From positions 6,466-70,465 of IMG/VR virus record IMGVR_UViG_3300017700_000738: a DNA stretch of 64,000 bases. One strand, 5' to 3'. The notes beneath the pieces are model-generated. The model saw only the letters and a list, made by a program, of their open reading frames with translations. It ran no database searches and was not told where the DNA came from. This stretch comes from a virus (Duplodnaviria; Caudoviricetes). A program made the translations under genes and the position numbers. Shown here in pieces: positions 12,858-47,131 of this stretch (position 1 is its first letter; every line of letters starts with the position of its first letter).

Positions 12858-13202
12858 ATGAACCTTAATGGCAAGCAGATCATCTCCATTTCCATCGCGG
12901 TTCTCGGCGTGTTGATGGTCTCCACCACCCAGCTGACGGACCTGTTCGGAGCCGGCGTCGCACAGAAGATCGTGTCTCTCGCCGCGCTGCTGAATACGGG
13001 TCTCGGCTCCGTCATGGCCGTGATTTCCAGCACGTCCCAGCAGTTCAAGGACGTCAGCAACACTACCGGTGTGGAACCGCTCCGCGTGAACGCGCAGGCC
13101 AGCCCGCAGCTGGCCGCACTCGCCGTCGATCCAAAGGTCGACAACATCGCCCCGACGCGCGCCGATATGGAAGCGGTCGAGGCCATCGCAAAAGGAGTTT
13201 GA
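12858..13202 (+). CDS. Putative holin
   Basis: 114 aa, two hydrophobic segments, follows endolysin. Confidence 0.5.
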   Translation: MNLNGKQIISISIAVLGVLMVSTTQLTDLFGAGVAQKIVSLAALLNTGLGSVMAVISSTSQQFKDVSNTTGVEPLRVNAQASPQLAALAVDPKVDNIAPTRADMEAVEAIAKGV

Positions 13203-15346: not shown

Positions 15347-15419
15347 GCTGGCTTAGGTCAGTGGGAGACCGCCGTCCTTGTAAGACGGATGTCGGGGGTT
15401 CGATTCCGCCCAGCCAGCA
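15347..15419 (+). tRNA. trnT: tRNA-Thr(UGU), no encoded CCA
   Basis: GCTGGCT/AGCCAGC acceptor; CCGTC-CTTGTAA-GACGG. Confidence 0.85.
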
Positions 15420-15432
15420 CAAAGCACAGATT

Positions 15433-15506
15433 GCCCTTGAAGCATTGAGGTGATGCACCGCTCTCGTAAAGCGGAGAGCCGGTTTCGATTCCCGGCATGG
15501 GCGCCA
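15433..15506 (+). tRNA. trnT: tRNA-Thr(CGU), imperfect T-stem
   Basis: CCGCT-CTCGTAA-AGCGG; ends GCCA. Confidence 0.75.
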
Positions 15507-15507
15507 A

Positions 15508-15588
15508 GTAGGGGGAAACATGGGTTCGAATCCCATCTGGAGCCACCGGTGCACCGGTCCAGTCGTCTAGTGGTTGGGACGCTCCCGC
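15508..15588 (+). ncRNA. Circularly permuted tRNA-like RNA 1 (YrlA-like core, no anticodon loop)
   Basis: Order T-arm (ATGGG-TTCGAAT-CCCAT), acceptor strands joined by linker, D-arm (GTCT-AGTGGTTG-GGAC); ends pair GGGGG/CTCCC. Confidence 0.7.
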
Positions 15589-15595
15589 AATTCAC

Positions 15596-15669
15596 GCTGC
15601 ATTCGTCCAGTGGTAGGGCACTGCTTTGGTAAGGCAGGAACCGGAGTTCGATCCTCCGATGTAGCACCA
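15596..15669 (+). tRNA. trnT: tRNA-Thr(GGU)
   Basis: CTGCT-TTGGTAA-GGCAG; ACCA end. Confidence 0.9.
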
Positions 15670-15670
15670 T

Positions 15671-15746
15671 GCGTGACTAGCCCAACGGTAGAGGCAGCGG
15701 TTTCAGAAGCCGTCCAGTCGGGGTTCGAATCTCCGGTCACGCACCA
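15671..15746 (+). tRNA. trnL: tRNA-Leu(CAG), short variable loop
   Basis: GCGGT-TTCAGAA-GCCGT; 5-nt variable loop. Confidence 0.85.
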
Positions 15747-15751
15747 TTCAC

Positions 15752-15828
15752 GCCCGTGTAGCCAAACGGTAAAGGCCGCTCGTTCAAAGCGAGTTCATCT
15801 GCGGGTTCGAATCCTGCCACGGGCACCA
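15752..15828 (+). tRNA. trnL: tRNA-Leu(CAA), short variable loop
   Basis: GCTCG-TTCAAAG-CGAGT. Confidence 0.85.
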
Positions 15829-15834
15829 CTTCAT

Positions 15835-15909
15835 GATCCGCGAGCCAGATGGGACGGCACCGGGCCTACACCCCGGCAAGACTGCGTTCGATTCGTAGGC
15901 GGGTTACCA
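15835..15909 (+). tRNA. trnV: tRNA-Val(UAC)
   Basis: CCGGG-CCTACAC-CCCGG. Confidence 0.85.
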
Positions 15910-15913
15910 TCAT

Positions 15914-15987
15914 GGTCCTATAGCTCAAAGGTAGAGCACGCGGCTGATAACCGCGCGACGTCGGATCGTTACCGGCTAGGACTACCA
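15914..15987 (+). tRNA. trnI: tRNA-Ile(GAU)
   Basis: CGCGG-CTGATAA-CCGCG; T-loop ATCGTTA. Confidence 0.9.
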
Positions 15988-16016
15988 ATTCACCGGCCTA
16001 ACTTAGGGAGCCGAAA

Positions 16017-16142
16017 ATGAAGTGCATTCACTGCCAGTTCGGGCTCGACCCGGTTCGGCTGAAGCGCCAGTGGGTCCACCACTTCCGCGACACCGGTCAG
16101 ATCGTCGTGTGCGAAGACAAGAACCTGAAACCGGCGTCCTAA
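16017..16142 (+). CDS. Small Cys/His protein inside the tRNA array
   Basis: AGGGAG SD; MKCIHCQFGLDPVRLKRQWVHHFRDTGQIVVCEDKNLKPAS*; below ORF-track size cut-off. Confidence 0.65.
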   Translation: MKCIHCQFGLDPVRLKRQWVHHFRDTGQIVVCEDKNLKPAS

Positions 16143-16144
16143 TT

Positions 16145-16219
16145 GGACCCGGAGTAGGAAAGTAGCACGCTGGCCTTTTAACCCATGCGAACTCGGGGCA
16201 GTACCGAGCGGGTTCACCA
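16145..16219 (+). tRNA. trnK: tRNA-Lys(UUU), divergent
   Basis: GGACCCG/CGGGTTC acceptor; loop CTTTTAA; T-loop GGCAGTA. Confidence 0.7.
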
Positions 16220-16224
16220 ATCAT

Positions 16225-16298
16225 CGACCGCAAGCATTAAGGTGATGCACGGGCCTCTTAACCCCGGGAACACGGATCGTTACCGTGGCGGTTGACCA
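16225..16298 (+). tRNA. trnK: tRNA-Lys(CUU)
   Basis: CGGGC-CTCTTAA-CCCCG. Confidence 0.85.
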
Positions 16299-16303
16299 AT
16301 CAT

Positions 16304-16379
16304 GTGTTCGTACCCCAACGGCAGAGGGACGGCGTTGAGAACGCCCTCAGTGGGAGTTCAAATCTCCCCGGACACACCA
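16304..16379 (+). tRNA. trnL: tRNA-Leu(GAG), short variable loop
   Basis: GGCG-TTGAGAA-CGCC. Confidence 0.85.
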
Positions 16380-16380
16380 T

Positions 16381-16454
16381 GCTGCTATAGCTCAAAGGCA
16401 GAGCGCCCGGTTGTCAACCGGAGGACCGGGGATCGATACCCCGTAGCAGCGCCA
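16381..16454 (+). tRNA. trnD: tRNA-Asp(GUC)
   Basis: CCGG-TTGTCAA-CCGG; G73. Confidence 0.9.
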
Positions 16455-16460
16455 TTTCAT

Positions 16461-16534
16461 CTGGGTGAAAGATTACGGTAGTCGGTGGGCTTTGGAAGCT
16501 CGCAGCGCGTGTTCGACTCACGCCACCCAGACCA
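16461..16534 (+). tRNA. trnP: tRNA-Pro(UGG)
   Basis: C1:G72, A73; TGGGC-TTTGGAA-GCTCG. Confidence 0.85.
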
Positions 16535-16686
16535 TTTCGAGAGCCGGTGGGGTCTCGCAAGAGCTTGGAGATGGGCGGTTCGATTCCCCCTCGCGCGGTG
16601 TAAAAGCCAAGCGGTCGTCTAACGGCTAGGATACCAAGATGCACACCGGACTAGAACGAGGCGTCATGACCCACGCCTACTCGAAA
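16535..16686 (+). ncRNA. Circularly permuted tRNA-like RNA 2 with extended closing helices (YrlA/Y-RNA-like)
   Basis: TTTCGAG/CTCGAAA, CCGGTG/CACCGG and CTTGG/CCAAG enclose T-arm, looped acceptor stem and D-arm. Confidence 0.7.
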
Positions 16687-16692
16687 CACTTA

Positions 16693-16768
16693 GCGCGTTG
16701 AGCCAGATGGGACGGCCCGCCGCTCATAACGGTAAGAGGACGGGGTTCGATCCCCCGAGCGCGCACCA
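16693..16768 (+). tRNA. tRNA-Met or Ile2 (CAU)
   Basis: GCCG-CTCATAA-CGGT; GCGCGTT/AGCGCGC. Confidence 0.85.
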
Positions 16769-17115
16769 TGAAGATCATCGCGAAGTATCTGCCGATGAAG
16801 GAGCCGCAGACGCCGTTGCTGCAGCTTTACATCCACGACGCGCCGCATCGGCGCATGCACATCAAGGTGATCCAGCAATACCGGGTCTTCCTGCATACGG
16901 CGATAGCGAAGGTCGGCGTCGCGCTGCCGATACAGCATGAAATCGATCTGGATGTCCTGTTCGTCAATCCGTCCACTCCCGACCTTGGCAATGCCTATCT
17001 GGCATTGGAGCAGGCGCTGGACGACAAGACGTTGACCAAGCCGGGCATCGTGCTCGACGACAGTCTTATCCAGAAGGTCACCATGTCGAAGTTCTTCCCG
17101 AACCCGAAAAAGTAA
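16768..17115 (+). CDS. RusA-like protein inside the tRNA array
   Basis: 115 aa; PDLGNAYLALEQALDD...GIVLDDSLI resembles RusA PDxDN...DD. Confidence 0.6.
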   Translation: MKIIAKYLPMKEPQTPLLQLYIHDAPHRRMHIKVIQQYRVFLHTAIAKVGVALPIQHEIDLDVLFVNPSTPDLGNAYLALEQALDDKTLTKPGIVLDDSLIQKVTMSKFFPNPKK

Positions 17116-17116
17116 C

Positions 17117-17192
17117 GGTCCCCGAGCCGGATGGACAAGGCACCGCCCTCCGAAGGCGGAGATACGGCGTTCGAATCGCCGGGGGATCACCA
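17117..17192 (+). tRNA. trnR: tRNA-Arg(CCG)
   Basis: CCGCC-CTCCGAA-GGCGG. Confidence 0.9.
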
Positions 17193-17196
17193 ATAC

Positions 17197-17287
17197 GGAG
17201 GAGAGAAGCGGTCGGGGTACCGTCGCGGTCTCGAAAACCGAGGGTGGGCGCAAGTCCATGGAGTTCGAATCTACCCCTCCTCCGCCA
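17197..17287 (+). tRNA. trnS: tRNA-Ser(CGA), long variable arm
   Basis: CGGT-CTCGAAA-ACCG; G73. Confidence 0.85.
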
Positions 17288-17289
17288 CC

Positions 17290-17318
17290 TTGGCAGCCGG
17301 CTCCCGGTTTGCTATATG
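17290..17318 (+). promoter_or_regulatory. Possible internal promoter in the tRNA array
   Basis: TTGGCA-N17-TATATG preceded by GC (alphaproteobacterial-type -10). Confidence 0.35.
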
Positions 17319-17457
17319 CACGAATGTCGCGTCGGGGCTACGCTTTAGCCAAGCCTATGGTCCGGTGCAGGCTGGCTTCCTGTCGGCGCGGCGCTCACTT
17401 CTCTATCGATCACGGATGTACTGACGATACGCGCACGAGTTCAAGCGGCGCACCAAT

Positions 17458-17534
17458 TGCGGGATGGAGCAGTGGTCAGCTCGGCAGTCTCATAAACTGC
17501 AGGTCGTCGGTTCGAATCCGGCTCTCCGCAACCA
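17458..17534 (+). tRNA. Initiator-like tRNA-Met(CAU), atypical
   Basis: fMet-like D-arm GAGC-AGTGGTCA-GCTC (A11:U24); GCAGT-CTCATAA-ACTGC. Confidence 0.8.
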
Positions 17535-17610
17535 TGTCACCGAAAAGTCGCCGCCCTTTAAGGCGTGTGGCCTGCGAACGGGCTCGCGAGATCGAGAGAT
17601 AGGGGCACCA
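17535..17610 (+). pseudogene. Degenerate type II tRNA-like element
   Basis: CGCC-CTTTAA-GGCG, GCCTG-CGAA-CGGGC variable arm, ends GCACCA; D- and T-arms do not fold. Confidence 0.45.
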
Positions 17611-17617
17611 TTTTTTT

Positions 17618-17703
17618 CCCTCAGTATCCCGCTAAGGACGCGGAGCCGACTGTAAATCGGAGGCCTGCGGGCTGGCGAGGATCGTTACCTCGATGGGGGA
17701 CCA
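17618..17703 (+). tRNA. trnY: tRNA-Tyr(GUA)
   Basis: CCGA-CTGTAAA-TCGG, variable arm, A73. Confidence 0.8.
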
Positions 17704-17704
17704 T

Positions 17705-17778
17705 GCGGACATAGGTTAATGGTAGACTTGGAGTGTGCCACACTTCGTGCGGGAGTTCGATTCTCCCTGTCCGCGCCA
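17705..17778 (+). tRNA. trnG: tRNA-Gly(GCC), G73
   Basis: GGAGT-GTGCCAC-ACTTC; GCGGACA/TGTCCGC. Confidence 0.8.
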
Positions 17779-17796
17779 ATTAAGAGGTTTGATCGC

Positions 17797-17943
17797 ATGA
17801 GATGCTTTTATGGCCCCGGAAACGATGATGATCGTACTTGCGGTCCTTGCGAGGCATGCGGCCGAGAGGCCGTCTTGGATCAATCCTATTCCGGTAAGAA
17901 TCGCGGGAAATTTGTCTGCGATGAATGCCGTGACGCCCAGTAA
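17797..17943 (+). CDS. Small zinc-finger-like protein
   Basis: AAGAGGT SD; MRCFYGPGNDDDRTCGPCEACGREAVLDQSYSGKNRGKFVCDECRDAQ (two CxxC). Confidence 0.7.
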   Translation: MRCFYGPGNDDDRTCGPCEACGREAVLDQSYSGKNRGKFVCDECRDAQ

Positions 17944-18010
17944 GCTAATCTATTGAAAGCGCCGAGCTGAAGCCTCGGAGAGCGTGGGGAGGAACCACGA
18001 CTGGGCACCA
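17935..18010 (+). tRNA. trnF: tRNA-Phe(GAA), divergent loops
   Basis: GCCCAGT/ACTGGGC; CCGAG-CTGAAGC-CTCGG; CGTGG-GGAGGAA-CCACG. Confidence 0.75.
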
Positions 18011-18081
18011 TTTTCGGAGGTTCTATGGAAAAGGGGACCTTCAGCGATCACCGGTGCTATTGCTGCGCACCGGAGCCAATT

Positions 18082-18153
18082 GGGGAGCGCGCCGGGGCGC
18101 TGCCGAACCTTGCAAGTTTGGCCGGGAGGGATCAACACCCTCGCTCTCCACCA
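18082..18153 (+). tRNA. trnA: tRNA-Ala(UGC), reduced D-arm
   Basis: G3:U70; GCCGAAC-CTTGCAA-GTTTGGC. Confidence 0.75.
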
Positions 18154-18155
18154 AG

Positions 18156-18234
18156 TTCGGTCAAGCCAAGCAAGGTGCAAGGACCCGCCTGTTAAGCGGT
18201 GATTAGCCCGGTTCGATTCCGGGGACCGGAGCCA
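18156..18234 (+). tRNA. trnN: tRNA-Asn(GUU)
   Basis: CCGC-CTGTTAA-GCGG; U1, G73. Confidence 0.9.
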
Positions 18235-18238
18235 ATAT

Positions 18239-18313
18239 GCTGTCGTCGTCTACTGGCTAGGATGCTGGGTTCTCAACCCGGTGAAGCGGGATCGAAACCC
18301 GCCGACAGCGCCA
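18239..18313 (+). tRNA. trnE: tRNA-Glu(CUC)
   Basis: CTGGG-TTCTCAA-CCCGG. Confidence 0.9.
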
Positions 18314-18314
18314 T

Positions 18315-18396
18315 GCACGCGTATCCCCCCTGATTACGAATCAGGACAAAGGTAACCGGAAGGCAGATGCGGGTTCGAATCCTGCCGCGTGCTCCA
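18315..18396 (+). tRNA. trnR: tRNA-Arg(ACG) with non-canonical topology
   Basis: Perfect acceptor, CCTGA-TTACGAA-TCAGG and T-arm; only 7 nt between acceptor and anticodon arm. Confidence 0.7.
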
Positions 18397-18401
18397 ATCA
18401 T

Positions 18402-18479
18402 CTGCGTGTAGCTCAGTCTGGTCAGAGTACGTCGTTCGGAACGACGGGGTCGCAGGATCGAAGCCTGCCACGCAGACCA
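18402..18479 (+). tRNA. trnP: tRNA-Pro(CGG)
   Basis: CGTCG-TTCGGAA-CGACG; C1:G72. Confidence 0.9.
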
Positions 18480-18483
18480 TTAC

Positions 18484-18557
18484 GCCCGCTTCGTATAACG
18501 GCAGTACACCGCTCTCTGAAAGCGGTAGCGTTGGATCGACACCAGCAGCGGGTGCCA
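18484..18557 (+). tRNA. trnQ: tRNA-Gln(CUG)
   Basis: CCGCT-CTCTGAA-AGCGG. Confidence 0.9.
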
Positions 18558-18562
18558 TTTAC

Positions 18563-18636
18563 CACGGTGTGGCCGAGTGACTAGGCAGCGGATTGCAACC
18601 CCGCGTAGGCCAGTTAAAATCTGGCCACCGTGTCCA
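18563..18636 (+). tRNA. trnC: tRNA-Cys(GCA)
   Basis: Loop TTGCAAC; U73. Confidence 0.85.
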
Positions 18637-18637
18637 T

Positions 18638-18714
18638 GCTTCCGTAGCTCAGTGGACAGAGCGCCGGTCTTCTACACCGGGTCGTCGGGTGTTCGAATCA
18701 TCCCGGAAGCGCCA
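18638..18714 (+). tRNA. trnR: tRNA-Arg(UCU)
   Basis: CCGGT-CTTCTAC-ACCGG. Confidence 0.9.
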
Positions 18715-18717
18715 TTT

Positions 18718-18794
18718 CTCGCCGTAGCTCAACTGGACAGAGCCACCGCCTCCTAAGCGGTTGCGTGGGCGTTCGAGTCGTCCCGGTGAGGCCA
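18718..18794 (+). tRNA. trnR: tRNA-Arg(CCU)
   Basis: ACCGC-CTCCTAA-GCGGT. Confidence 0.9.
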
Positions 18795-18799
18795 ACCAT

Positions 18800-18887
18800 G
18801 GAAGGTCAACCAGCAAGGCGCTGGCGGCCCCTGCTAAGGGCATGGCGCCGGCAACGGCGTGGTGATCGTGTCTCCGGCCTTCCGCCA
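18800..18887 (+). tRNA. trnS: tRNA-Ser(GCU), long variable arm
   Basis: GCCC-CTGCTAA-GGGC; GCGCCG-GCAA-CGGCGT. Confidence 0.85.
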
Positions 18888-18891
18888 TTTC

Positions 18892-18965
18892 GCGTGCTTA
18901 GTTTAGAGGTAAAATTCTGCGCTTCCAACGCAGCGTCCCGGGTTCGATTCCCGGAGCCCGCGCCA
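18892..18965 (+). tRNA. trnG: tRNA-Gly(UCC), G73
   Basis: CTGCG-CTTCCAA-CGCAG. Confidence 0.85.
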
Positions 18966-18966
18966 T

Positions 18967-19041
18967 CCTGTGTTCGTCTACTGGCTAGGATCACGCTCTT
19001 TCACAGCGTAGAAGCGGGATCGATACCCGCACACAGGGCCA
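18967..19041 (+). tRNA. trnE: tRNA-Glu(UUC)
   Basis: ACGCT-CTTTCAC-AGCGT. Confidence 0.9.
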
Positions 19042-19046
19042 ATTGA

Positions 19047-19117
19047 TGCGGCACCTCCGGTGAGGGGTGGGGCCTTTGAAGCCCTGCAGCTCGGTTCGAC
19101 ACCGAGTGCCGCTGCCA
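19047..19117 (+). tRNA. trnQ: tRNA-Gln(UUG)
   Basis: GGGGC-CTTTGAA-GCCCT; 1-72 mismatch. Confidence 0.8.
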
Positions 19118-19137
19118 GCATCTCCGCTGGTACGCGA

Positions 19138-19208
19138 CCCGATGCCTCCGGCGAGGACACCGCTCTCATAAGGCGGTCAGGGTGCGTCGGCAGCACCCTT
19201 CGGGACCA
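19138..19208 (+). tRNA. tRNA-Met or Ile2 (CAU), divergent T-loop
   Basis: CCGCT-CTCATAA-GGCGG; T-loop GTCGGCA. Confidence 0.75.
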
Positions 19209-19213
19209 TTCAT

Positions 19214-19289
19214 GCCAACTAGGCCGATCAGGTGATGGCGCGGGTTTGTGGAGCCCGAGAGGCTGGATCGATACCAGCAGTTGGTACCA
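19214..19289 (+). tRNA. trnH: tRNA-His(GUG), A73, no G-1
   Basis: CGGGT-TTGTGGA-GCCCG. Confidence 0.9.
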
Positions 19290-19293
19290 ATAT

Positions 19294-19368
19294 GCGAGCG
19301 AGGTGTTACGGCAGCATCCCGGTCTCCAAAACCGTGGGGAGCAAGTTCAATTCTTGCCGCTCGTGCCA
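19294..19368 (+). tRNA. trnW: tRNA-Trp(CCA)
   Basis: CGGT-CTCCAAA-ACCG; G73. Confidence 0.9.
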
Positions 19369-27002: not shown

Positions 27003-27800
27003 ATGGCCAAGAAACCAGCCGCAGAGAAGAAGCCGCGCGAGCCAAAGGCCGCGAAGCCAAAGACCACCAAGGATAAGGCCGCGAAGCCGGCTGGGAAGAA
27101 GTTCAACAGCCCGGTGAACGAGACCGACAAGGCGCTGTTCCTGCAGACCCTGCCGAAGATCGCGAAGGCACGCGACGATATCGCCAAGGCCACCAACCAC
27201 CTCCGCACCCTCTACAAGGTCGCCAAGAAGGACGGCTTCCTCAAGAGCGACTTCGACACCGCATTCGCCATTCAGGGCGCCGAGGGTGAGAAAAACAAGA
27301 AGGCAGCGATTGCGCGCGATCTCACGATTGCGAAGTGGCTGGGCTGCGATCTGGGCTCCCAGCTCGACCTGTTCGTGCAGGACGAGCGCGTGCCGGCGGC
27401 TGATCGTGCGTGGGAGGAAGGTCAGGCGGCGTCCATGAAGGGCGAGACGGCCAAGCCGAACTATGCGCCCTCGACCGAGCAGTACCGCAAGTACATGGAG
27501 GGTTACCACCACGATCAGGAAAACCGGATCAAGAAGGGCATCAAGCCGACGCCAGAAGGTGAAACCACTTCGCCCGGCCTGATCACCAAGGCGCAGAAGG
27601 ATGCGGCAGCGAAGGCCGAGGCCGAGAAGAAGGCCAGTGCCGGTGCTGGACGTGGTCCGGGGCCTCGCCCTGACGCTCCCACGTCGGGCGTCTCCATGAG
27701 CCGTGCGGACTTCAAGAAACAGCAGGCGGACGCTGCAGCCAAGGCCAAGGCGGATGCCGAGAAGCTGTTCGACAAGACTGGCGCCGGCAAACCGAACTGA
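27003..27800 (+). CDS. Lys/Ala-rich DNA-binding protein with GapR (DUF2312)-like segment
   Basis: ATG 27003 after GGAG; LRTLYKVAKKDGFLKSDF. Confidence 0.6.
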   Translation: MAKKPAAEKKPREPKAAKPKTTKDKAAKPAGKKFNSPVNETDKALFLQTLPKIAKARDDIAKATNHLRTLYKVAKKDGFLKSDFDTAFAIQGAEGEKNKKAAIARDLTIAKWLGCDLGSQLDLFVQDERVPAADRAWEEGQAASMKGETAKPNYAPSTEQYRKYMEGYHHDQENRIKKGIKPTPEGETTSPGLITKAQKDAAAKAEAEKKASAGAGRGPGPRPDAPTSGVSMSRADFKKQQADAAAKAKADAEKLFDKTGAGKPN

Positions 27801-28300
27801 TGTCGGCGCTGTTGCCTGAAGGTGAGGGCTCCGTTTCGGCGGAGCCCTTTGTCGTGATCCAGCTGATGGGTGTTCCGCGCGGAAAGGGTCGCCCGCGCTT
27901 CGGTACCATCGGCGGTTTCGTGCGCGTGTTCACCGACAAGGAAACGGTGAAATACGAGAAGGCGCTGAAGGCCGCCGGCATTGAGGCCATGGAGGGCCGA
28001 GAGGTCCTCGACGAGGCCGTGAGTGTGATCATCCGCGCCTATATGCCGATCCCGGAAAGCTGGTCGAAGAAGAAAAAACAGATGGCGCTGGAGGGCGATC
28101 TTGCGCCGACCACGATGCCCGACCTCGACAACATCACGAAGATGATCGACGGGCTGAATTATCATCCGCCACGGTTCAAGGGCGACAAGGAAAAGCGGCC
28201 AATTGTGTGGAAGAACGATTCGTTGATCGTCAGTATGCAGGCGATGAAACTCTATGATGCGGAGCCGCGTCTGGAGATCGTGGTGTTCCGATGGGGCTGA
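27800..28300 (+). CDS. rusA: RusA Holliday junction resolvase
   Basis: PRGKGRPRF; MPDLDNITKMIDGLN; WKNDSLIV. Confidence 0.9.
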   Translation: MSALLPEGEGSVSAEPFVVIQLMGVPRGKGRPRFGTIGGFVRVFTDKETVKYEKALKAAGIEAMEGREVLDEAVSVIIRAYMPIPESWSKKKKQMALEGDLAPTTMPDLDNITKMIDGLNYHPPRFKGDKEKRPIVWKNDSLIVSMQAMKLYDAEPRLEIVVFRWG

Positions 28301-45212: not shown

Positions 45213-45404
45213 ATGCCCGCAGATAACTACGCGCCCCGAGCTGGGGTGATGATGCAAGATGCGAGTTCCGAGACTAAGACCCCAGAGCTTCGCTGGTTTG
45301 ATGGGCGCCTTCAGCAATACGTCGCGATCACTACCTATCGGGGAGGTACGATCTCCGGTCAGCATGGCGAATGGCGTGAAATCCCGATAGTCGACGCCGA
45401 GTGA
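45213..45404 (+). CDS. Hypothetical protein
   Basis: GGAG SD, ATG 45213; GTGA overlap with terL. Confidence 0.55.
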   Translation: MPADNYAPRAGVMMQDASSETKTPELRWFDGRLQQYVAITTYRGGTISGQHGEWREIPIVDAE

Positions 45405-47131
45405 ACCAGCAAATCCCGAGAGCCGAGTTCGAGCGCTTTGCCGCGCTTGTCGCCGAGAAGAACCGGCGGCGAGCCAAGATCGAGCATTGCACACGAGGCT
45501 ACCGGGATGAGAACGGCGTCTGGCAGGGAGGCCTCCTAAGCTTCGTTCGGTTCTTCTGGCATGTTCTGGAGCCCGGGACGAAATTTCGCACTGGGTGGGC
45601 TCTGGAGGCGATGTGCGAGCATCTGGAGGCGGTCACCTTCGGTGAGATCACCAAGCTGCTGATCAACGTGCCGCCCGGCTTCATGAAATCCCTGCTGACG
45701 GACGTGTTCTGGCCGGCGTGGGAGTGGGGGCCGATGAAGATGCCCCATGTCCGATATGTGGCGTTCAGCTACTCGTCCAGCCTCACCGAGCGCGACAATC
45801 TGAAGTTCAAGGACCTGATCACCTCCAAGGATTACCAGTCGATGTACGGCGCCGCCGCGCACGACAAGGATGATCGGCAGGTCCTCCCCCGCAAGGTCGG
45901 CGAGAAGAAGGTTTCGAACTCCAAGCACGGCTGGAAGCTGGCCACCTCGGTCGGCGGTGTCGGTACCGGTGAGCGCGGTGATCGCATCATTCTCGACGAT
46001 CCGCACAACGTGAAGGAGTCCGAATCGCCCACGGTCCGCAAGGAGACGATCCGTTGGTTCCGGGAATCGATGTCGTCGCGTCTGAACGACATGCAGAACG
46101 GCGCCAAGGTCGTGATCATGCAGCGTGTCAACGAGGAGGACGTCTCCGGCACCATCATCGGGTTCGGCGATTGGTGTCACCTGCTGATCCCGATGGAATA
46201 CGTCTGGTCGGCGGACGAGAATGGCGATCCGTACGAGACTGATATCGGCTGGATCGACCCGCGCTGGCGCGAGACACCGCAGGAATGCGAAGGCGAGCTG
46301 GCATGGACCGAGCACTTCCCCGAGAGCGTCATCCCTAGCATGAAGAAGGACGCCGGCCCGTTCGCTTGGTCGTCCCAGTACCAGCAGACCCCCAAGATGC
46401 GCGGCAACGCGATATTCGAGGAGGATATGTGGCAGCCATGGGAGCCGGCGGACGGCAAATTCCCGATCTGCAGCTACATCGTGGCATCGCTGGACGGCGC
46501 CTATACGGAGGACGAGCAGAACGATCCCTCGGCCTTGGTGGTCGTGGGCGTGTTCGAGAACGAGTTCGGGCGCAACCGCGCCATCGTGATGCACGGCTGG
46601 CGCCGCCGGCTGCAGTTCTCGGGCCGCAAGTTGGTGCCGCATCCCGGCGAGGGCTCGATAGCGTTCCGACAGCGATCCCAGAAGGAATGGGGACTCGTCG
46701 AGTGGGTGGCGGACACCTGCAACCGCTTCCGCATCGACCGGCTCCTGATCGAGGCCAAGGCCACCGGCATATCGGCGGCCCAGAGCCTCGGCAATTCGCA
46801 CCCGGACGCCGGCTGGAGCATTCAGCTCTGCCCCGTGAAGGGCGACAAGGTCGCGCGCGCTATCGCGGTGCAACCGTCGTTCTCGCAGGAGATGATCTAC
46901 ATGCCGTACCCGCTGCGGCAATGGGGCGAGGATATGATCGACGAAATGTCCTACTTCCCCAAGGGCAAGCATGACGACTACACGGACGCGATGACGCAAT
47001 GCATCAAGCATCTGCGCGACATGGGGCTGCTGCGCAACGATGACGAGGTCAGGGTCTCGGAGACGGAGGCCGCCAAGCTGAAGCCGAAGCGCAAGAAGCT
47101 GTATCCCGGCACGCACGCCACCGGCGCGTAA
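45401..47131 (+). CDS. terL: Terminase large subunit
   Basis: NVPPGFMKS, ILDDPHN, QYQQTP, SLDGAY, IEAKATG, KHDDYTDAMTQ. Confidence 0.95.
   Translation: MNQQIPRAEFERFAALVAEKNRRRAKIEHCTRGYRDENGVWQGGLLSFVRFFWHVLEPGTKFRTGWALEAMCEHLEAVTFGEITKLLINVPPGFMKSLLTDVFWPAWEWGPMKMPHVRYVAFSYSSSLTERDNLKFKDLITSKDYQSMYGAAAHDKDDRQVLPRKVGEKKVSNSKHGWKLATSVGGVGTGERGDRIILDDPHNVKESESPTVRKETIRWFRESMSSRLNDMQNGAKVVIMQRVNEEDVSGTIIGFGDWCHLLIPMEYVWSADENGDPYETDIGWIDPRWRETPQECEGELAWTEHFPESVIPSMKKDAGPFAWSSQYQQTPKMRGNAIFEEDMWQPWEPADGKFPICSYIVASLDGAYTEDEQNDPSALVVVGVFENEFGRNRAIVMHGWRRRLQFSGRKLVPHPGEGSIAFRQRSQKEWGLVEWVADTCNRFRIDRLLIEAKATGISAAQSLGNSHPDAGWSIQLCPVKGDKVARAIAVQPSFSQEMIYMPYPLRQWGEDMIDEMSYFPKGKHDDYTDAMTQCIKHLRDMGLLRNDDEVRVSETEAAKLKPKRKKLYPGTHATGA

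What the first reader, a model, noticed from the sequence alone, without database searches (positions are those of the whole stretch)
15347..19368. Complete 20-amino-acid set of 35 tRNAs in a roughly 64-kb podovirus-like genome
Seen: 35 manually folded tRNAs, 34 with encoded CCA, covering all 20 amino acids, plus two permuted mimics and degenerate elements in 4 kb. Known: arrays this large are typical of much larger phages, and phage tRNAs can replace host tRNAs cut by anticodon-nuclease defences. Inference: a translation-rescue cassette combining toxin-resistant tRNA variants with anticodon-less decoys. This is the best candidate for a new system in the window.
Basis: partly seen in the sequence, partly recalled or inferred. 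Interest (0 to 1): 0.8.

Follow-up and report, generated by a model that had tools for sequence, protein, structure and literature searches.

The report
Conserved phage tRNA cassette with mimics
A 70-kb tailed phage carries a real 4-kb block of about 30-35 tRNA genes that turns out to be one copy of a conserved, horizontally shared cassette (tRNAs, tRNA look-alike RNAs and a small RusA-like protein) also found in other phages and in a Bradyrhizobium chromosome, most likely a back-up tRNA supply for stressed or attacked translation.

Summary
The array is real. ARAGORN plus-strand tRNAs at 15347-19368, and Rfam plus a Ser. Relaxed ARAGORN adds Tyr, Ser(GCU) and Gln(UUG). Four hand-folded cloverleaves (Lys-UUU, Phe-GAA, Arg-ACG, a third CAU) bring the count to 35; 34 encode CCA. 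All 20 amino acids are covered only if sub-threshold Tyr and hand-folded Phe count. The genome is 70,465 bp, not 64 kb.

The array is not unique. The 115-aa ORF inside it marks the same syntenic cassette in 18 IMG/VR contigs, including complete 65-104 kb genomes with TerL 73%, 61%, 37% identical or undetectable. It also lies in a Bradyrhizobium chromosomal island that holds RtcB.

Family-wide oddities:
- A37 in 43 of 55 TrmD-type tRNAs
- non-U54/A58 T-loops in 24% of tRNAs
- short-arm Leu tRNAs

Mimic 1 is conserved with compensatory changes in four relatives. Its topology is that of YrlA Y RNAs, but it fails YrlA membership tests. "Decoy" and "toxin-resistant" remain inference.

Verdict: an unusually dense member of the known phage tRNA-cluster / L-array kind, with undescribed accessory parts. 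This scan noted the RusA-fold gene and Y-RNA-like mimics in phage tRNA arrays before, on other DNA.

The parts
15347..15420 (+). tRNA-Thr(UGU); the only gene without an encoded CCA
   Evidence: ARAGORN 112.8, Rfam 45.6 bits. The first tRNA also lacks CCA in L014, L015 and L016.
15433..15506 (+). tRNA-Thr(CGU)
   Evidence: ARAGORN 104.3, Rfam 45.8
15507..15595 (+). Mimic 1: a tRNA-shaped four-way junction. The order is closing stem (GGGG/CUCC), T arm, capped acceptor-like hairpin, Glu-type D arm. It has no anticodon loop and no free acceptor end.
   Evidence: MFE fold. The same architecture occupies the same slot in L013, L015, L028 and the core of L021. 9 of 18 pairs carry compensatory changes. 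CM R1 scores 66-90 bits on these five. Rfam YrlA gives only 12.6 bits.
15596..15669 (+). tRNA-Thr(GGU)
   Evidence: ARAGORN 112.7, Rfam 55.4
15671..15746 (+). tRNA-Leu(CAG), 76 nt, short variable loop, A37
   Evidence: ARAGORN 116.9, Rfam 49.4; structure
15752..15828 (+). tRNA-Leu(CAA), 77 nt, short variable loop
   Evidence: ARAGORN 117.7, Rfam 54.2
15835..15909 (+). tRNA-Val(UAC); anticodon loop CCUACAC (C33)
   Evidence: ARAGORN 103.2; no Rfam match
15914..15987 (+). tRNA-Ile(GAU); T loop AUCGUUA
   Evidence: ARAGORN 112.4, Rfam 59.6
16017..16142 (+). 41-aa Cys-containing ORF between tRNAs
   Evidence: ORF list; no Pfam or PHROG match
16145..16219 (+). tRNA-Lys(UUU)-like; hand fold; T loop GGCAGUA
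   Evidence: 7/7 acceptor pairs followed by ACCA. The MFE fold does not give a clean cloverleaf. Lys(UUU) precedes Lys(CUU) in L020.
16225..16298 (+). tRNA-Lys(CUU); T loop AUCGUUA
   Evidence: ARAGORN 103.8; no Rfam match
16304..16379 (+). tRNA-Leu(GAG), 76 nt, short variable loop, A37
   Evidence: ARAGORN 114.0, Rfam 45.4
16381..16454 (+). tRNA-Asp(GUC); T loop AUCGAUA
   Evidence: ARAGORN 108.3, Rfam 60.3
16461..16534 (+). tRNA-Pro(UGG), A37
   Evidence: ARAGORN 111.7, Rfam 40.9
16535..16692 (+). Mimic 2: a long Y-RNA-like element. It has an outer helix UUUCGAG/CUCGAAA, a second helix CCGGUG/CACCGG, a GNRA hairpin, a permuted tRNA-like core (Met-like T arm, Glu-like D arm) and a 3' hairpin GAGGCGUC..ACGCCUAC.
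   Evidence: Sequence and fold. The 5' CGAGAGC and 3' ACGAGGCGYC..RCGCCUAC blocks are invariant in L012, L021, L025 and L026, and the outer helix covaries. CM R1 gives 22 bits on the core.
16693..16768 (+). tRNA-Met(CAU); the last A of its CCA is the A of the ORF's ATG
   Evidence: ARAGORN 104.7; no Rfam match; sequence
16768..17115 (+). 115-aa conserved ORF, a divergent RusA-like protein (HDAPHRRMH, PDLGN and DDSLI motifs). It marks the cassette.
   Evidence: GC3 0.82 against GC2 0.28. 50-84% identical homologues lie in 18 IMG/VR loci, always between tRNA-Met and tRNA-Arg(CCG). 445 protein clusters in metagenomes. RusA resemblance is weak: PDB profile E 0.2, 1 of 19 members hits Pfam RusA at E 0.0034, hhalign against the phage's own RusA E 0.015.
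17117..17192 (+). tRNA-Arg(CCG), A37
   Evidence: ARAGORN 111.8, Rfam 48.9
17197..17287 (+). tRNA-Ser(CGA), long variable arm. In this register the acceptor is GGAGGAG/CUCCUCC followed by GCCA.
   Evidence: ARAGORN 104.2 at 17199-17283; Rfam tRNA-Sec model 45.8 bits at 17197-17283
17288..17457 (+). Degenerate stretch. It includes a 68-nt acceptor-plus-ACCA candidate at 17388-17455.
   Evidence: 6/7 acceptor pairs; no cloverleaf. ARAGORN at -ps60 finds nothing credible.
17458..17534 (+). tRNA-Met(CAU)
   Evidence: ARAGORN 115.1, Rfam 54.5
17553..17610 (+). 58-nt mini-element ending in ACCA and followed by T7
   Evidence: z-score -1.2; not a tRNA by any caller
17618..17703 (+). tRNA-Tyr(GUA), long variable arm, T loop AUCGUUA
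   Evidence: ARAGORN 99.6, only at the relaxed threshold. Syntenic with Tyr in L012, L014, L020, L022 and L028.
17705..17778 (+). tRNA-Gly(GCC)
   Evidence: ARAGORN 108.2, Rfam 53.2
17797..17943 (+). 48-aa Cys-rich ORF whose end overlaps the start of tRNA-Phe
   Evidence: weak PHROG 13157 match, E 0.003
17935..18010 (+). tRNA-Phe(GAA); hand fold; no GG in the D loop; T loop GGAGGAA; G37
   Evidence: 7/7 acceptor pairs followed by ACCA. The MFE is a cloverleaf, z -2.7. It is the orthologue of canonical Phe in L027 and others, with stems kept by compensatory changes.
18013..18078 (+). Two hairpins followed by AGCCA (minihelix-like element)
18082..18153 (+). tRNA-Ala(UGC), short D arm, T loop AUCAACA
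   Evidence: ARAGORN 103.6; no Rfam match. The same odd form occurs in L016, L036 and L037.
18156..18234 (+). tRNA-Asn(GUU)
   Evidence: ARAGORN 102.4; no Rfam match
18239..18313 (+). tRNA-Glu(CUC)
   Evidence: ARAGORN 111.8, Rfam 50.9
18315..18396 (+). tRNA-Arg(ACG)-like, rearranged. It has no normal D arm and an 18-nt insert after the anticodon arm.
   Evidence: 7/7 acceptor pairs followed by UCCA; canonical T arm. It occupies the slot of canonical Arg(ACG) in L015, L022, L023 and L028 but is not alignable with them outside the anticodon and T arms.
18402..18479 (+). tRNA-Pro(CGG), A37
   Evidence: ARAGORN 116.2, Rfam 56.9
18484..18557 (+). tRNA-Gln(CUG)
   Evidence: ARAGORN 107.6, Rfam 48.8
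18563..18636 (+). tRNA-Cys(GCA), T loop UUAAAAU
   Evidence: ARAGORN 105.6, Rfam 44.1
18638..18714 (+). tRNA-Arg(UCU)
   Evidence: ARAGORN 119.7, Rfam 59.1
18718..18794 (+). tRNA-Arg(CCU)
   Evidence: ARAGORN 118.8, Rfam 50.0
18800..18887 (+). tRNA-Ser(GCU), long variable arm
   Evidence: ARAGORN 95.4, relaxed threshold only. Syntenic with Ser(GCU) in L022 and L023.
18892..18965 (+). tRNA-Gly(UCC)
   Evidence: ARAGORN 117.4, Rfam 60.4
18967..19041 (+). tRNA-Glu(UUC)
   Evidence: ARAGORN 109.3, Rfam 44.8
19050..19117 (+). tRNA-Gln(UUG), 68 nt, truncated D arm
   Evidence: ARAGORN 92.1, relaxed threshold only. Syntenic with Gln(UUG) in L015, L016, L023 and L029.
19138..19208 (+). Third CAU tRNA (Met, fMet or Ile2); hand fold; 4-nt D loop; T loop GUCGGCA
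   Evidence: 6/7 acceptor pairs followed by ACCA. The MFE is a cloverleaf, z -1.9. Met(CAU) precedes His in L016 and L029.
19214..19289 (+). tRNA-His(GUG), G37
   Evidence: ARAGORN 103.0, Rfam 46.2
19294..19368 (+). tRNA-Trp(CCA)
   Evidence: ARAGORN 107.3, Rfam 43.5

Best explanation
The region is a functional tRNA operon. It is one copy of a conserved cassette that moves horizontally between phages and bacterial chromosomes, so it belongs with phage tRNA gene clusters and bacterial L-arrays.

Shown here:
- The array, its conserved gene order, and its presence in unrelated phages and in a Bradyrhizobium chromosome.
- The conserved tRNA-shaped RNAs and the embedded RusA-like ORF.
- The family-wide departures from bacterial tRNA norms.

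Inferred mechanism:
- The array lies on the + strand just after the lysis genes, so it is probably transcribed with them. The polycistronic transcript would then be cut by host RNase P and 3' nucleases. The short, similar spacers and the encoded CCA mean no CCA addition is needed.
- The set could read about 87% of the phage's own codons. It would keep translation going when host tRNAs are depleted, cleaved or left unmodified, whether by host tRNA-targeting defences or by the phage's own takeover.
- A37 in place of G37, the swapped 54/58 T-loop pairs and the arm-less Leu tRNAs would make these tRNAs independent of host modification or recognition at those sites.
- The two tRNA mimics are YrlA-like small RNAs released from the same transcript. 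They present a tRNA elbow without anticodon or acceptor end. They would bind a tRNA-recognising partner, such as a host Rsr/Ro60-type protein, a processing enzyme or a nuclease.
- The RusA-like protein probably serves maintenance or spread of the cassette, by analogy with the nuclease genes next to other tRNA arrays.
For: - 28 default ARAGORN calls, and 22 Rfam RF00005 matches plus Ser(CGA) on the tRNA-Sec model, lie in 4 kb on one strand.
- 34 of 35 genes encode CCA.
- The 115-aa ORF finds 18 IMG/VR loci, and every one carries the same ordered array.
- Five of those records are complete genomes with terminal repeats. Their TerL is 73%, 61% or 37% identical to the window's, or undetectable, while the ORF stays 62-79% identical.
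- The nearest array-less relative by TerL (55%, complete) has only 2 tRNAs.
- A homologous array lies in Bradyrhizobium sp. BR13661 between ordinary metabolic genes, with RtcB inside it.
- Ro60/TROVE directly follows the array in G008 and G020, and RNA ligase occurs in 2 of 16 viral records.
- Family-wide traits: A37 in 43 of 55 TrmD-type tRNAs, 54/58 not U/A in 95 of 391, CCA in 368 of 391, short-arm Leu in 23 of 38.
- Mimic 1 is conserved with compensatory changes.
- The degenerate-looking Phe keeps all its stems by compensatory change relative to its orthologues.
- Codon cover is 87%, including both common and rare codons.
- Literature: L-arrays spread by HGT, neighbour nuclease and rtcB genes, and are induced under translational stress (PMC8421152). 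Phage tRNAs are predicted to be insensitive to anticodon nucleases (PMC10264068). A Ro60-like protein next to a phage tRNA block counters the Ppl defence (PMC11482910).
Against: - There are no expression, processing or charging data.
- The host is unknown, so 'differs from host tRNAs' rests on general knowledge of bacterial tRNAs and not on a comparison.
- The set is not self-sufficient. The commonest Ala (GCC) and Val (GUC) codons, and CCC, UCC and others (13% of codons), have no cognate or wobble tRNA in it.
- The window phage has no RtcB, RNA ligase or Ro60 of its own.
- Several genes may be non-functional: Arg-ACG, Lys-UUU, Gln-UUG, and the stretches 17288-17457, 17553-17610 and 18013-18078.
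- In a Felix O1-type phage most tRNA genes were dispensable on laboratory hosts (PMC11482910).
- The RusA assignment is weak, and the structure model was poor (pLDDT 60).
Confidence: 0.6

Rival explanations
1. This is plain codon or translation-capacity support. The array only raises the supply of tRNAs for the phage's highly expressed late genes, with no link to defence or repair. The odd positions are neutral drift that the translation machinery tolerates, and the mimics are leftovers.
For: - The array follows the structural and lysis genes on the same strand.
- It covers the phage's most used codons CUG, GGC, AAG, CAG, GAG and AUC.
- Codon compensation is the classical explanation for phage tRNAs (cited in PMC10264068 and PMC11482910).
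Against: - It also encodes tRNAs for very rare codons (AGA 5 uses, AGG 22, UUG 60), yet has none for the most used Ala and Val codons.
- The same gene order is kept in phages whose GC content runs from 45% to 61%. That does not fit tuning to one codon usage.
- A37 and the 54/58 changes recur across the family and are not scattered at random.
- Mimic 1 is conserved with compensatory changes.
- RNA-repair genes lie next to the array in relatives.
Confidence: 0.22
2. This is a selfish mobile cassette. The array with its RusA-like nuclease persists because it spreads between co-infecting phages and chromosomes, as the T4 tRNA region does with SegB. It gives the carrier little benefit.
For: - The cassette occurs in phages with unrelated terminases and in a bacterial chromosome. 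The embedded ORF is far better conserved than TerL.
- Presence and absence vary within one TerL clade.
- Nuclease genes next to tRNA arrays are linked to their spread (PMC8421152, citing T4 SegB).
Against: - RusA-type resolvases are not known homing enzymes.
- The second catalytic Asp is replaced in 17 of 19 members.
- About 5% of a 70-kb genome is kept with intact cloverleaves over deep divergence: 2258 of 2313 doubly changed stem pairs still pair, though this is biased because only callable tRNAs were compared.
Confidence: 0.12
3. This is mostly decaying debris. The array is a recent pick-up now eroding, and the mimics are accidental joins of tRNA halves left by deletions between tandem genes.
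For: - Seven of the 35 genes fail default callers.
- Three further stretches are tRNA-like fragments.
- The 3' half of mimic 2 resembles the neighbouring tRNA-Met, and its acceptor-like stem pairs poorly.
- MFE z-scores of the mimics are near 0.
Against: - 22 genes pass Rfam's gathering score and 28 pass ARAGORN.
- Order and content are conserved across at least 20 divergent loci.
- Mimic 1 keeps all four helices in five phages with four different T-stem sequences.
- The scaffold of mimic 2 is conserved in four other arrays.
Confidence: 0.05

Closest known systems
Phage tRNA gene clusters (Morgado & Vicente 2019, PMC6409571; e.g. Felix O1-, T5-, phiCbK-like and cluster M/C mycobacteriophages)
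   Same: The array is dense and on one strand, at about 7-9 tRNAs per kb. It holds 28-35 genes covering 18-20 isotypes, with small ORFs and pseudo-tRNAs interspersed. All of this lies within the published ranges (15-37 genes, 2-10 per kb, eight clusters with all 20 isotypes).
   Different: The genome (70.5 kb) is just below the smallest carrier in that survey (72 kb), and the gene count is near the top of its range. I found no cultured phage with this cassette (no ORF match in 50,697 phage records).
Bacterial L-arrays / tRNA array units (Santamaria-Gomez et al. 2021, PMC8421152; Mycobacterium array units, PMC5966550, PMC12803027)
   Same: The array is long, non-periodic and on one strand, and it is spread by horizontal transfer. 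It has a nuclease gene and rtcB as neighbours. A homologous copy forms a small island in a Bradyrhizobium chromosome with RtcB inside it. The proposed roles, back-up tRNAs or a sponge under translational stress, are the same.
   Different: Here the carrier is a lytic-looking phage. The embedded nuclease-like gene is RusA-fold, not a homing endonuclease. Regulation is unknown.
YrlA-type Y RNAs, tRNA mimics bound by Rsr/Ro60 (Chen et al. 2014, PMC4201824; Rfam RF02553)
   Same: The module order is the same: basal stem, variable region, T arm, capped acceptor-like stem-loop, D arm. T-loop and D-loop signatures are kept. Mimic 2 and its relatives carry a 5' GNCGAGAG that is one base off YrlA's GNCGAAN0-1G. 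Two cassette-bearing phages encode Ro60 right after the array.
   Different: This phage has no Ro60 gene. Rfam YrlA scores 12.6 bits against a threshold of 69. Mimic 1 has only a 5-bp basal stem and no Ro-binding helix or motif.
Nuclease-insensitive phage tRNAs (van den Berg et al. 2023, PMC10264068)
   Same: Phage tRNAs differ from bacterial norms in the anticodon loop. Here A37 replaces G37 in Leu-CAG, Leu-GAG, Pro-UGG, Pro-CGG and Arg-CCG, and G37 appears in Phe and His.
   Different: That work compared phage tRNAs with known host tRNAs and known cleavage sites. Here the host and any nuclease are unknown. The changes also extend to the T loop and the variable arm.

Membership tests
Viral tRNA gene cluster (criteria of PMC6409571) | At least 15 tRNA genes at a density of at least 2 tRNA per kb | tested here: met
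   28 default ARAGORN calls in 4,022 bp, which is 7.0 per kb; 35 with relaxed and manual calls, which is 8.7 per kb.
Viral tRNA gene cluster (criteria of PMC6409571) | The carrier is a virus genome | tested here: met
   IMG/VR record, CheckV 100%. It encodes TerL, an SU10-type portal, ejection proteins, DnaB, Erf and an exonuclease.
L-array (PMC8421152) | A long array in one orientation, close enough to be co-transcribed, and not periodic | tested here: met
   All genes are on the + strand, and most spacers are 1-12 nt. No repeated isotype pattern is seen.
L-array (PMC8421152) | Spread by horizontal transfer (patchy distribution, foreign context) | tested here: met
   The same cassette occurs in phages with TerL at 73%, 61%, 37% identity or undetectable, and in a Bradyrhizobium chromosomal island. 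It is absent from a relative with 55% TerL identity.
L-array (PMC8421152) | Induced by translational stress | not testable with these tools
YrlA Y RNA (PMC4201824, RF02553) | A tRNA-like domain in the order V, T, acceptor-like stem-loop, D, on a stem formed by the two ends | tested here: met
   Folds of mimic 1 and its homologues. The core of mimic 2 is less regular: its acceptor-like stem is poor.
YrlA Y RNA (PMC4201824, RF02553) | A GNCGAAN0-1G motif near the 5' end | tested here: not met
   The motif is absent from mimic 1. Mimic 2 and four homologues have (G)NCGAGAGC, one base off; the window reads UUCGAGAG.
YrlA Y RNA (PMC4201824, RF02553) | Encoded within about 4 kb of a Ro60/TROVE gene on the same strand | tested here: not met
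   There is no TROVE match in the 70-kb genome. The feature is met in two cassette-bearing relatives, G008 and G020.
YrlA Y RNA (PMC4201824, RF02553) | Reaches the Rfam gathering score of 69 bits | tested here: not met
   12.6 bits, E 3.6, for mimic 1. Mimic 2 gave no match at E<=10 in the region search.
Circularly permuted tRNA gene (PMC3978253) | The 3' half is encoded upstream of the 5' half of one tRNA | tested here: met
   In mimic 1 the halves pair with each other in both the acceptor-like stem and the anticodon-stem equivalent.
Circularly permuted tRNA gene (PMC3978253) | Processing can give a mature tRNA with an anticodon loop and a free CCA end | tested here: not met
   There is no anticodon loop. 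The ends would leave an 11-13-nt join. The acceptor strands are joined by a capped hairpin in all five homologues.
RusA Holliday-junction resolvase (PF05866) | Match to the family profile | tested here: not met
   The window ORF has no match at E<=10; 1 of 19 homologues matches at E 0.0034. The phage's true RusA at 27800-28300 scores 94.9 bits.
RusA Holliday-junction resolvase (PF05866) | Catalytic Asp residues (DxD ... D; the roles are from my memory of E. coli RusA) | tested here: inconclusive
   PD72 and D97-D98 are invariant. The second Asp of DLD is Gly in most members and is kept only in L017 and L024.
Anticodon-nuclease-insensitive phage tRNAs (PMC10264068) | The anticodon loop differs from the host's cognate tRNA at the nuclease's recognition site | tested here: inconclusive
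   A37 is found in all five TrmD-type tRNAs of the window and in 43 of 55 across the family. The host tRNAs and any nuclease are unknown.

The most novel reading that the evidence does not exclude
The cassette is a self-contained counter-measure against attack on tRNAs, with three working parts.
1. A near-complete set of tRNAs re-engineered to need no host modification or recognition at position 37, at T-loop positions 54/58 and in the Leu variable arm.
2. Anticodon-less, acceptor-capped tRNA mimics that act without a phage Ro60. They would titrate or mis-direct a tRNA-elbow-reading host factor, such as a nuclease, a sensor or host Rsr.
3. A RusA-fold protein that has lost a catalytic Asp and now binds or processes four-way-junction RNA (tRNA-shaped molecules) rather than DNA junctions.
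Probability: 0.12. Interest if true: 0.8.

Novelty: new variant of a known kind. Interest (0 to 1): 0.55.

Why it matters
Why phages carry tRNAs is still debated: codon tuning, replacement of degraded host tRNAs, or escape from tRNA-cutting defences.

This cassette is a natural test case for that debate.
- One ordered set of about 25-35 tRNAs is kept across phages of 45-61% GC and across unrelated packaging lineages. That is hard to explain by codon tuning.
- It carries systematic changes at enzyme-read positions.
- It travels with tRNA look-alike RNAs and a conserved small protein.
- In relatives it sits beside RtcB, RNA ligase or Ro60.

A homologous copy lies in a cultured strain, Bradyrhizobium sp. 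BR13661. So expression, charging and the effect of translation stress or tRNases can be tested without first isolating the uncultured phages.

Tried and rejected
- DNA searches of the array against 50,697 phage records found nothing at megablast level. The blastn search found only single-tRNA matches.
- The ORF protein search of the same records found nothing.
- Rfam gave no meaningful non-tRNA family for either mimic. YrlA scored 12.6 bits and Twister-sister 14.4 bits, both noise. The L014 long-stem element also gave nothing.
- ARAGORN at -ps60 on each gap found no further credible tRNA.
- The motif CACCGGTG, which I thought might be a recurring signal, is not enriched: 3 copies against 1.5 expected.
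- The promoter and terminator scan of the array gave fewer sites than shuffled sequence.
- The AlphaFold2 model of the 115-aa protein was poor (pLDDT 60), and the Foldseek search with it gave only noise. The RusA-like label therefore rests on weak sequence evidence.
- Pfam, PHROGs and NCBIfam gave nothing for the window ORF.
- The covariance model R1 also matches ordinary junctions between adjacent tRNAs (T arm of one, D arm of the next). Its hits below about 40 bits cannot be counted as mimics.
- The count of compensated stem pairs across orthologues is biased, because only sequences that ARAGORN already folds as tRNAs enter it. I do not use it as proof of selection.
- I considered that mimic 1 could be circularised into a real tRNA. 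I rejected this because no anticodon loop of normal size would result in any of the homologues.

Full report
**1. The observation**

ARAGORN with default settings finds 28 tRNA genes, all on the + strand, between 15347 and 19368. It finds only one other hit in the window, on the minus strand at 13057-13140. That hit lies inside a + strand ORF, has no Rfam support, and is probably false.

Rfam gives 20 tRNA matches at gathering threshold over the whole window. Searching the region alone gives 22 matches above the 29-bit cut-off, plus Ser(CGA) matched by the tRNA-Sec model at 45.8 bits. Five default ARAGORN calls get no Rfam match: Val-UAC, Lys-CUU, Met at 16693, Ala-UGC and Asn-GUU.

Lowering ARAGORN's threshold adds three + strand genes in gaps: Tyr-GUA (99.6), Ser-GCU (95.4) and Gln-UUG (92.1). 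I then searched for 7-nt acceptor strands followed by NCCA and folded the candidates. That recovers four more cloverleaf-like genes: Lys-UUU 16145-16219, Phe-GAA 17935-18010, Arg-ACG 18315-18396 and a third CAU gene at 19138-19208.

34 of these are followed by NCCA; the exception is the first gene, Thr-UGU. Default calls cover 18 amino acids. Tyr needs the relaxed threshold and Phe the hand fold. The window is part of a 70,465-bp IMG/VR record rated 100% complete, so the genome is 70.5 kb and not about 64 kb.

**2. The phage**

The genome encodes:
- a large terminase (45401-47131);
- a portal matching the SU10 portal family (50467-52803);
- large ejection-type virion proteins;
- DnaB, an Erf-type annealing protein and an exonuclease;
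- a canonical RusA at 27800-28300.

The best TerL match among isolated phages is 40% identical. The array lies after the endolysin and membrane-protein genes, at the switch to a minus-strand gene block.

**3. The array is one copy of a conserved cassette**

The 115-aa ORF that starts at the last A of tRNA-Met's CCA (16768-17115) has strong coding statistics (GC3 0.82, GC2 0.28). It has 50-84% identical homologues in 18 IMG/VR contigs. Every one of those loci carries a + strand tRNA array with the same order:

Thr-Thr-Thr-Leu-Leu-Val-Ile ... Lys-Leu-Asp-Pro ... Met-[ORF]-Arg(CCG) ... Met-Tyr-Gly-Phe-Ala-Asn-Glu-Arg(ACG)-Pro-Gln-Cys-Arg-Arg ... Gly-Glu-Gln ... His-Trp.

Evidence that the cassette moves between lineages:
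- Five carriers tested are complete genomes with terminal repeats, 65.6-103.6 kb. Their TerL is 73%, 61% or 37% identical to the window's, or not detectable. The ORF in the same genomes is 62-79% identical.
- The closest complete relative found by the first TerL search (55%) has only two tRNAs.
- The protein family has 445 clusters in metagenome collections, on contigs of up to 108 kb. No record among 50,697 deposited phage genomes encodes it.
- It also occurs on a 283-kb contig of an alphaproteobacterial MAG and on a 361-kb contig of Bradyrhizobium sp. BR13661.
- In Bradyrhizobium a 24-tRNA array of the same order is flanked on both sides by ordinary chromosomal genes. These are a sugar-kinase-like gene, PdxA and an Fe-alcohol dehydrogenase upstream. 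Downstream lie GST, a sulfatase, an AcrB/HlyD pump and TonB receptors. An RtcB RNA ligase gene sits inside the array, and a DUF4145 protein follows it.

The cassette is therefore shared horizontally between unrelated phages and a bacterial chromosome. That is the behaviour described for bacterial L-arrays, whose neighbourhoods are enriched in a nuclease gene and rtcB (PMC8421152).

**4. The sub-threshold genes**

All seven genes that fail default callers occupy slots where relatives have a callable tRNA with the same anticodon.
- **Phe.** The window gene aligns with canonical orthologues such as L027. Acceptor, anticodon and T stems are all kept through compensatory changes. The D-loop GG and the T-loop consensus have both changed. 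That looks like a maintained cloverleaf without the usual elbow contact, not like decay.
- **Arg-ACG.** This gene is different. It shares the slot, the anticodon arm and a canonical T arm. It has no normal D arm and carries an 18-nt insert. Whether it works cannot be judged here.
- **Other stretches.** 17288-17457, 17553-17610 and 18013-18078 contain acceptor-like ends or hairpins but no tRNA.

**5. Family-wide oddities**

In the window:
- All five tRNAs of the kinds that bacteria methylate at G37 with TrmD have A37: Leu-CAG, Leu-GAG, Pro-UGG, Pro-CGG and Arg-CCG. (That these are TrmD substrates is established knowledge and was not tested here.)
- Phe and His have G37.
- 14 of 35 T loops do not have U54/A58: 7 are A/A, 4 are A/U and 3 are G/G.
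- The three Leu tRNAs are 76-77 nt with a 4-6-nt variable loop in place of the long arm. They keep a Leu-type D arm and A73.

Across 391 tRNAs in the 18 related viral arrays:
- A37 holds in 43 of 55 TrmD-type tRNAs, including 12 of 12 Arg-CCG.
- The 54/58 pair is U/A in 296, A/U in 44, A/A in 31 and G/G in 14.
- CCA is encoded in 368.
- Leu is short-armed in 23 of 38.

A37 in Pro and Leu tRNAs and G37 in His also occur in the tRNA blocks of Caulobacter and Brevundimonas jumbo phages. Those keep UUC-type T loops and long-arm Leu. These traits belong to the cassette lineage and are not random damage in this phage. What selects for them is not shown. Escape from enzymes that read these positions, or independence from host modification, are inferences in line with PMC10264068.

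**6. Codon cover**

I used 28 confidently coding genes (9,844 codons) and strict wobble rules. The 35 genes would read 87% of the phage's codons.
- Not covered: GCC and GCU, GUC and GUU, CCC and CCU, UCC, UCU and UCA, AUA, CUA and UUA.
- Covered: the rare AGA, AGG and UUG codons as well as the abundant ones.

Together with conservation of the set across 45-61% GC genomes, this argues against simple codon tuning. It also argues against full autonomy.

**7. The mimics**

*Mimic 1 (15507-15595)* folds into a four-way junction with these parts:
- a closing stem GGGG/CUCC;
- a canonical T arm (AUGGG-UUCGAAU-CCCAU);
- an acceptor-like helix capped by a loop;
- a Glu-type D arm (GUCU-AGUGGUUG-GGAC).

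The MFE z-score is 0, so energy alone says nothing. The same architecture sits in the same slot, directly before Thr-GGU, in L013, L015 and L028, and forms the core of a longer element in L021. In the RNAalifold consensus, 9 of 18 pairs show double changes that keep pairing. A covariance model built from the five scores 66-90 bits on them. It also picks up ordinary junctions between adjacent tRNAs at up to about 40 bits, so weaker hits are not informative.

*Mimic 2 (16535-16692)* is longer. It has an outer helix, a second helix, a GNRA hairpin, a less regular tRNA-like core and a 3' hairpin. Its 5' CGAGAGC and 3' ACGAGGCGYC...RCGCCUAC blocks are invariant in elements of L012, L021, L025 and L026, whose outer helices covary.

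The module order (stem, V, T, capped acceptor, D) is that of YrlA Y RNAs (PMC4201824). The 5' block is one base off YrlA's GNCGAAN0-1G.

Membership of YrlA is not met:
- Rfam gives 12.6 bits against a threshold of 69.
- The phage has no Ro60/TROVE gene.
- Mimic 1 has no Ro-type helix.

Two of the 16 viral cassette records searched do encode Ro60 immediately after the array (G008 and G020). A weak YrlA-like match lies between the array and Ro60 in L016. In a Felix O1-type coliphage, a Ro60-like protein next to the tRNA block counters the Ppl defence, and the authors suspect that some of its 'tRNAs' are Y RNAs (PMC11482910).

'Anticodon-less decoy' is therefore a possible role, but 'YrlA-like tRNA mimic of unknown partner' is what the evidence supports. 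The mimics are not permuted tRNA genes of the algal or archaeal kind, because no anticodon loop could result from processing (PMC3978253).

**8. The embedded protein**

Invariant residues across 19 homologues include HDAPHRRMH, YR, PD, and DD followed by SLIQKV. The link to RusA is weak but consistent:
- The only PDB sequences matched by the family profile are E. coli RusA (E 0.2), aligned at DLDN against DLGN.
- One of the 19 members hits Pfam RusA at E 0.0034.
- hhalign against the phage's own RusA aligns PDLGN...DDSLI with PDLDN...NDSLI at E 0.015 but low probability.
- JGI names some family members 'RusA-like'.

The second Asp of the DxD motif is Gly in most members. The structure model was too poor to use. 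Its role is open: cassette maintenance or spread, or a new RNA-directed function.

**9. Comparison with what is known, and verdict**

A survey of virus genomes found tRNA clusters of 15-37 genes at 2-10 per kb in genomes of 72-617 kb. Eight of them had all 20 isotypes, about 4% were in podoviruses, and larger clusters tended to lie in smaller genomes (PMC6409571). This array fits that kind. It is at the small-genome, high-count edge.

I could not find the following described in the paper library:
- this particular cassette family, with its fixed order;
- its RusA-fold gene;
- its YrlA-like mimics in phages that lack Ro60;
- its family-wide position-37 and 54/58 changes and arm-less Leu tRNAs;
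- its presence in both phages and a rhizobial chromosome.

Earlier notes of this scan recorded the same RusA-fold gene in tRNA arrays of two other genomes. They also recorded Y-RNA-like permuted tRNA mimics in several Felix O1-type and other phage arrays. My results agree with those notes. I tested only the parts named above.

I rate the finding as a new variant of a known kind, of moderate interest.

Noticed in passing
L036:6513-7847 and L039:419-1078 (Bradyrhizobium sp. BR13661, contig C6 about 203.8-210.1 kb): The chromosomal copy of the cassette carries an RtcB RNA ligase gene between its tRNAs, and a DUF4145 protein directly after the array. Both flanks are ordinary metabolic and transport genes, so this is a small island and not a prophage.
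   Followed up: partly
G008:C1:77169-78176 and G020:C1:65958-66854 (genomes of L016 and L027): Two cassette-bearing phages of about 103 kb encode a Ro60/TROVE protein (about 550 aa) directly downstream of the tRNA array on the same strand. L016:9145-9215 between them gives a weak YrlA match (22.8 bits), and L016:9330-9388 is a tRNA-like module without an acceptor stem.
   Followed up: partly
L014:3512-3642: A 131-nt element between Thr genes has a closing stem of about 22 bp around a T arm and a GGUUGGGG D-like loop (MFE -67 kcal/mol, z -4.3). It is another Y-RNA-like form in the closest array-bearing relative. Rfam has no match for it.
   Followed up: partly
L008:1498-1573 (relative G001, TerL 55%, no array): One of this phage's two tRNAs has anticodon CUA, an amber-suppressor type that ARAGORN labels 'Pyl'. 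It lies next to a tRNA-Pro(CGG) with A37.
   Followed up: no
L015:4025-4100: ARAGORN calls a 76-nt tRNA with a four-base anticodon (UAAA) in the Leu block of a related array. It could be a frameshift-suppressor-like tRNA or a miscall.
   Followed up: no
L010:1950-2036 and L011:2026-2115 (Brevundimonas phage Kikimora, Caulobacter phage CcrColossus): The tRNA-Lys(CUU) genes of these jumbo phages are 87-90 nt long, with a class II-like long variable arm. This is the reverse of the short-arm Leu tRNAs seen in the window's cassette.
   Followed up: no
window 27800-28300: A canonical RusA resolvase (Pfam 94.9 bits) lies in the replication/recombination block. The array-embedded RusA-like ORF is therefore a second, divergent copy.
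   Followed up: yes
window 13057-13140 (minus strand): A lone ARAGORN 'tRNA-Arg(GCG)' hit lies inside a + strand ORF with no Rfam support. It is probably a false positive.
   Followed up: partly
G006:C1:15888-17612: The TerL homologue of the closest array-bearing relative (73% identity) is read through one in-frame TGA. This could be a sequencing error, a frameshift or recoding.
   Followed up: no
window 15421-19293, spacers: Most inter-tRNA spacers are 1-8 nt, and many end in CAU or CAC just before the next tRNA's +1 base (uuucau, auucac, aucau, ucau, accau). This may be a shared RNase P leader context.
   Followed up: no
L030:1249-1809 and G022:C1:64974-65408: A 186-203-aa RNA ligase (PF09414) occurs in two cassette-bearing records. 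In L030 and L031 it lies next to RecA, about 4 kb upstream of the array ORF.
   Followed up: partly
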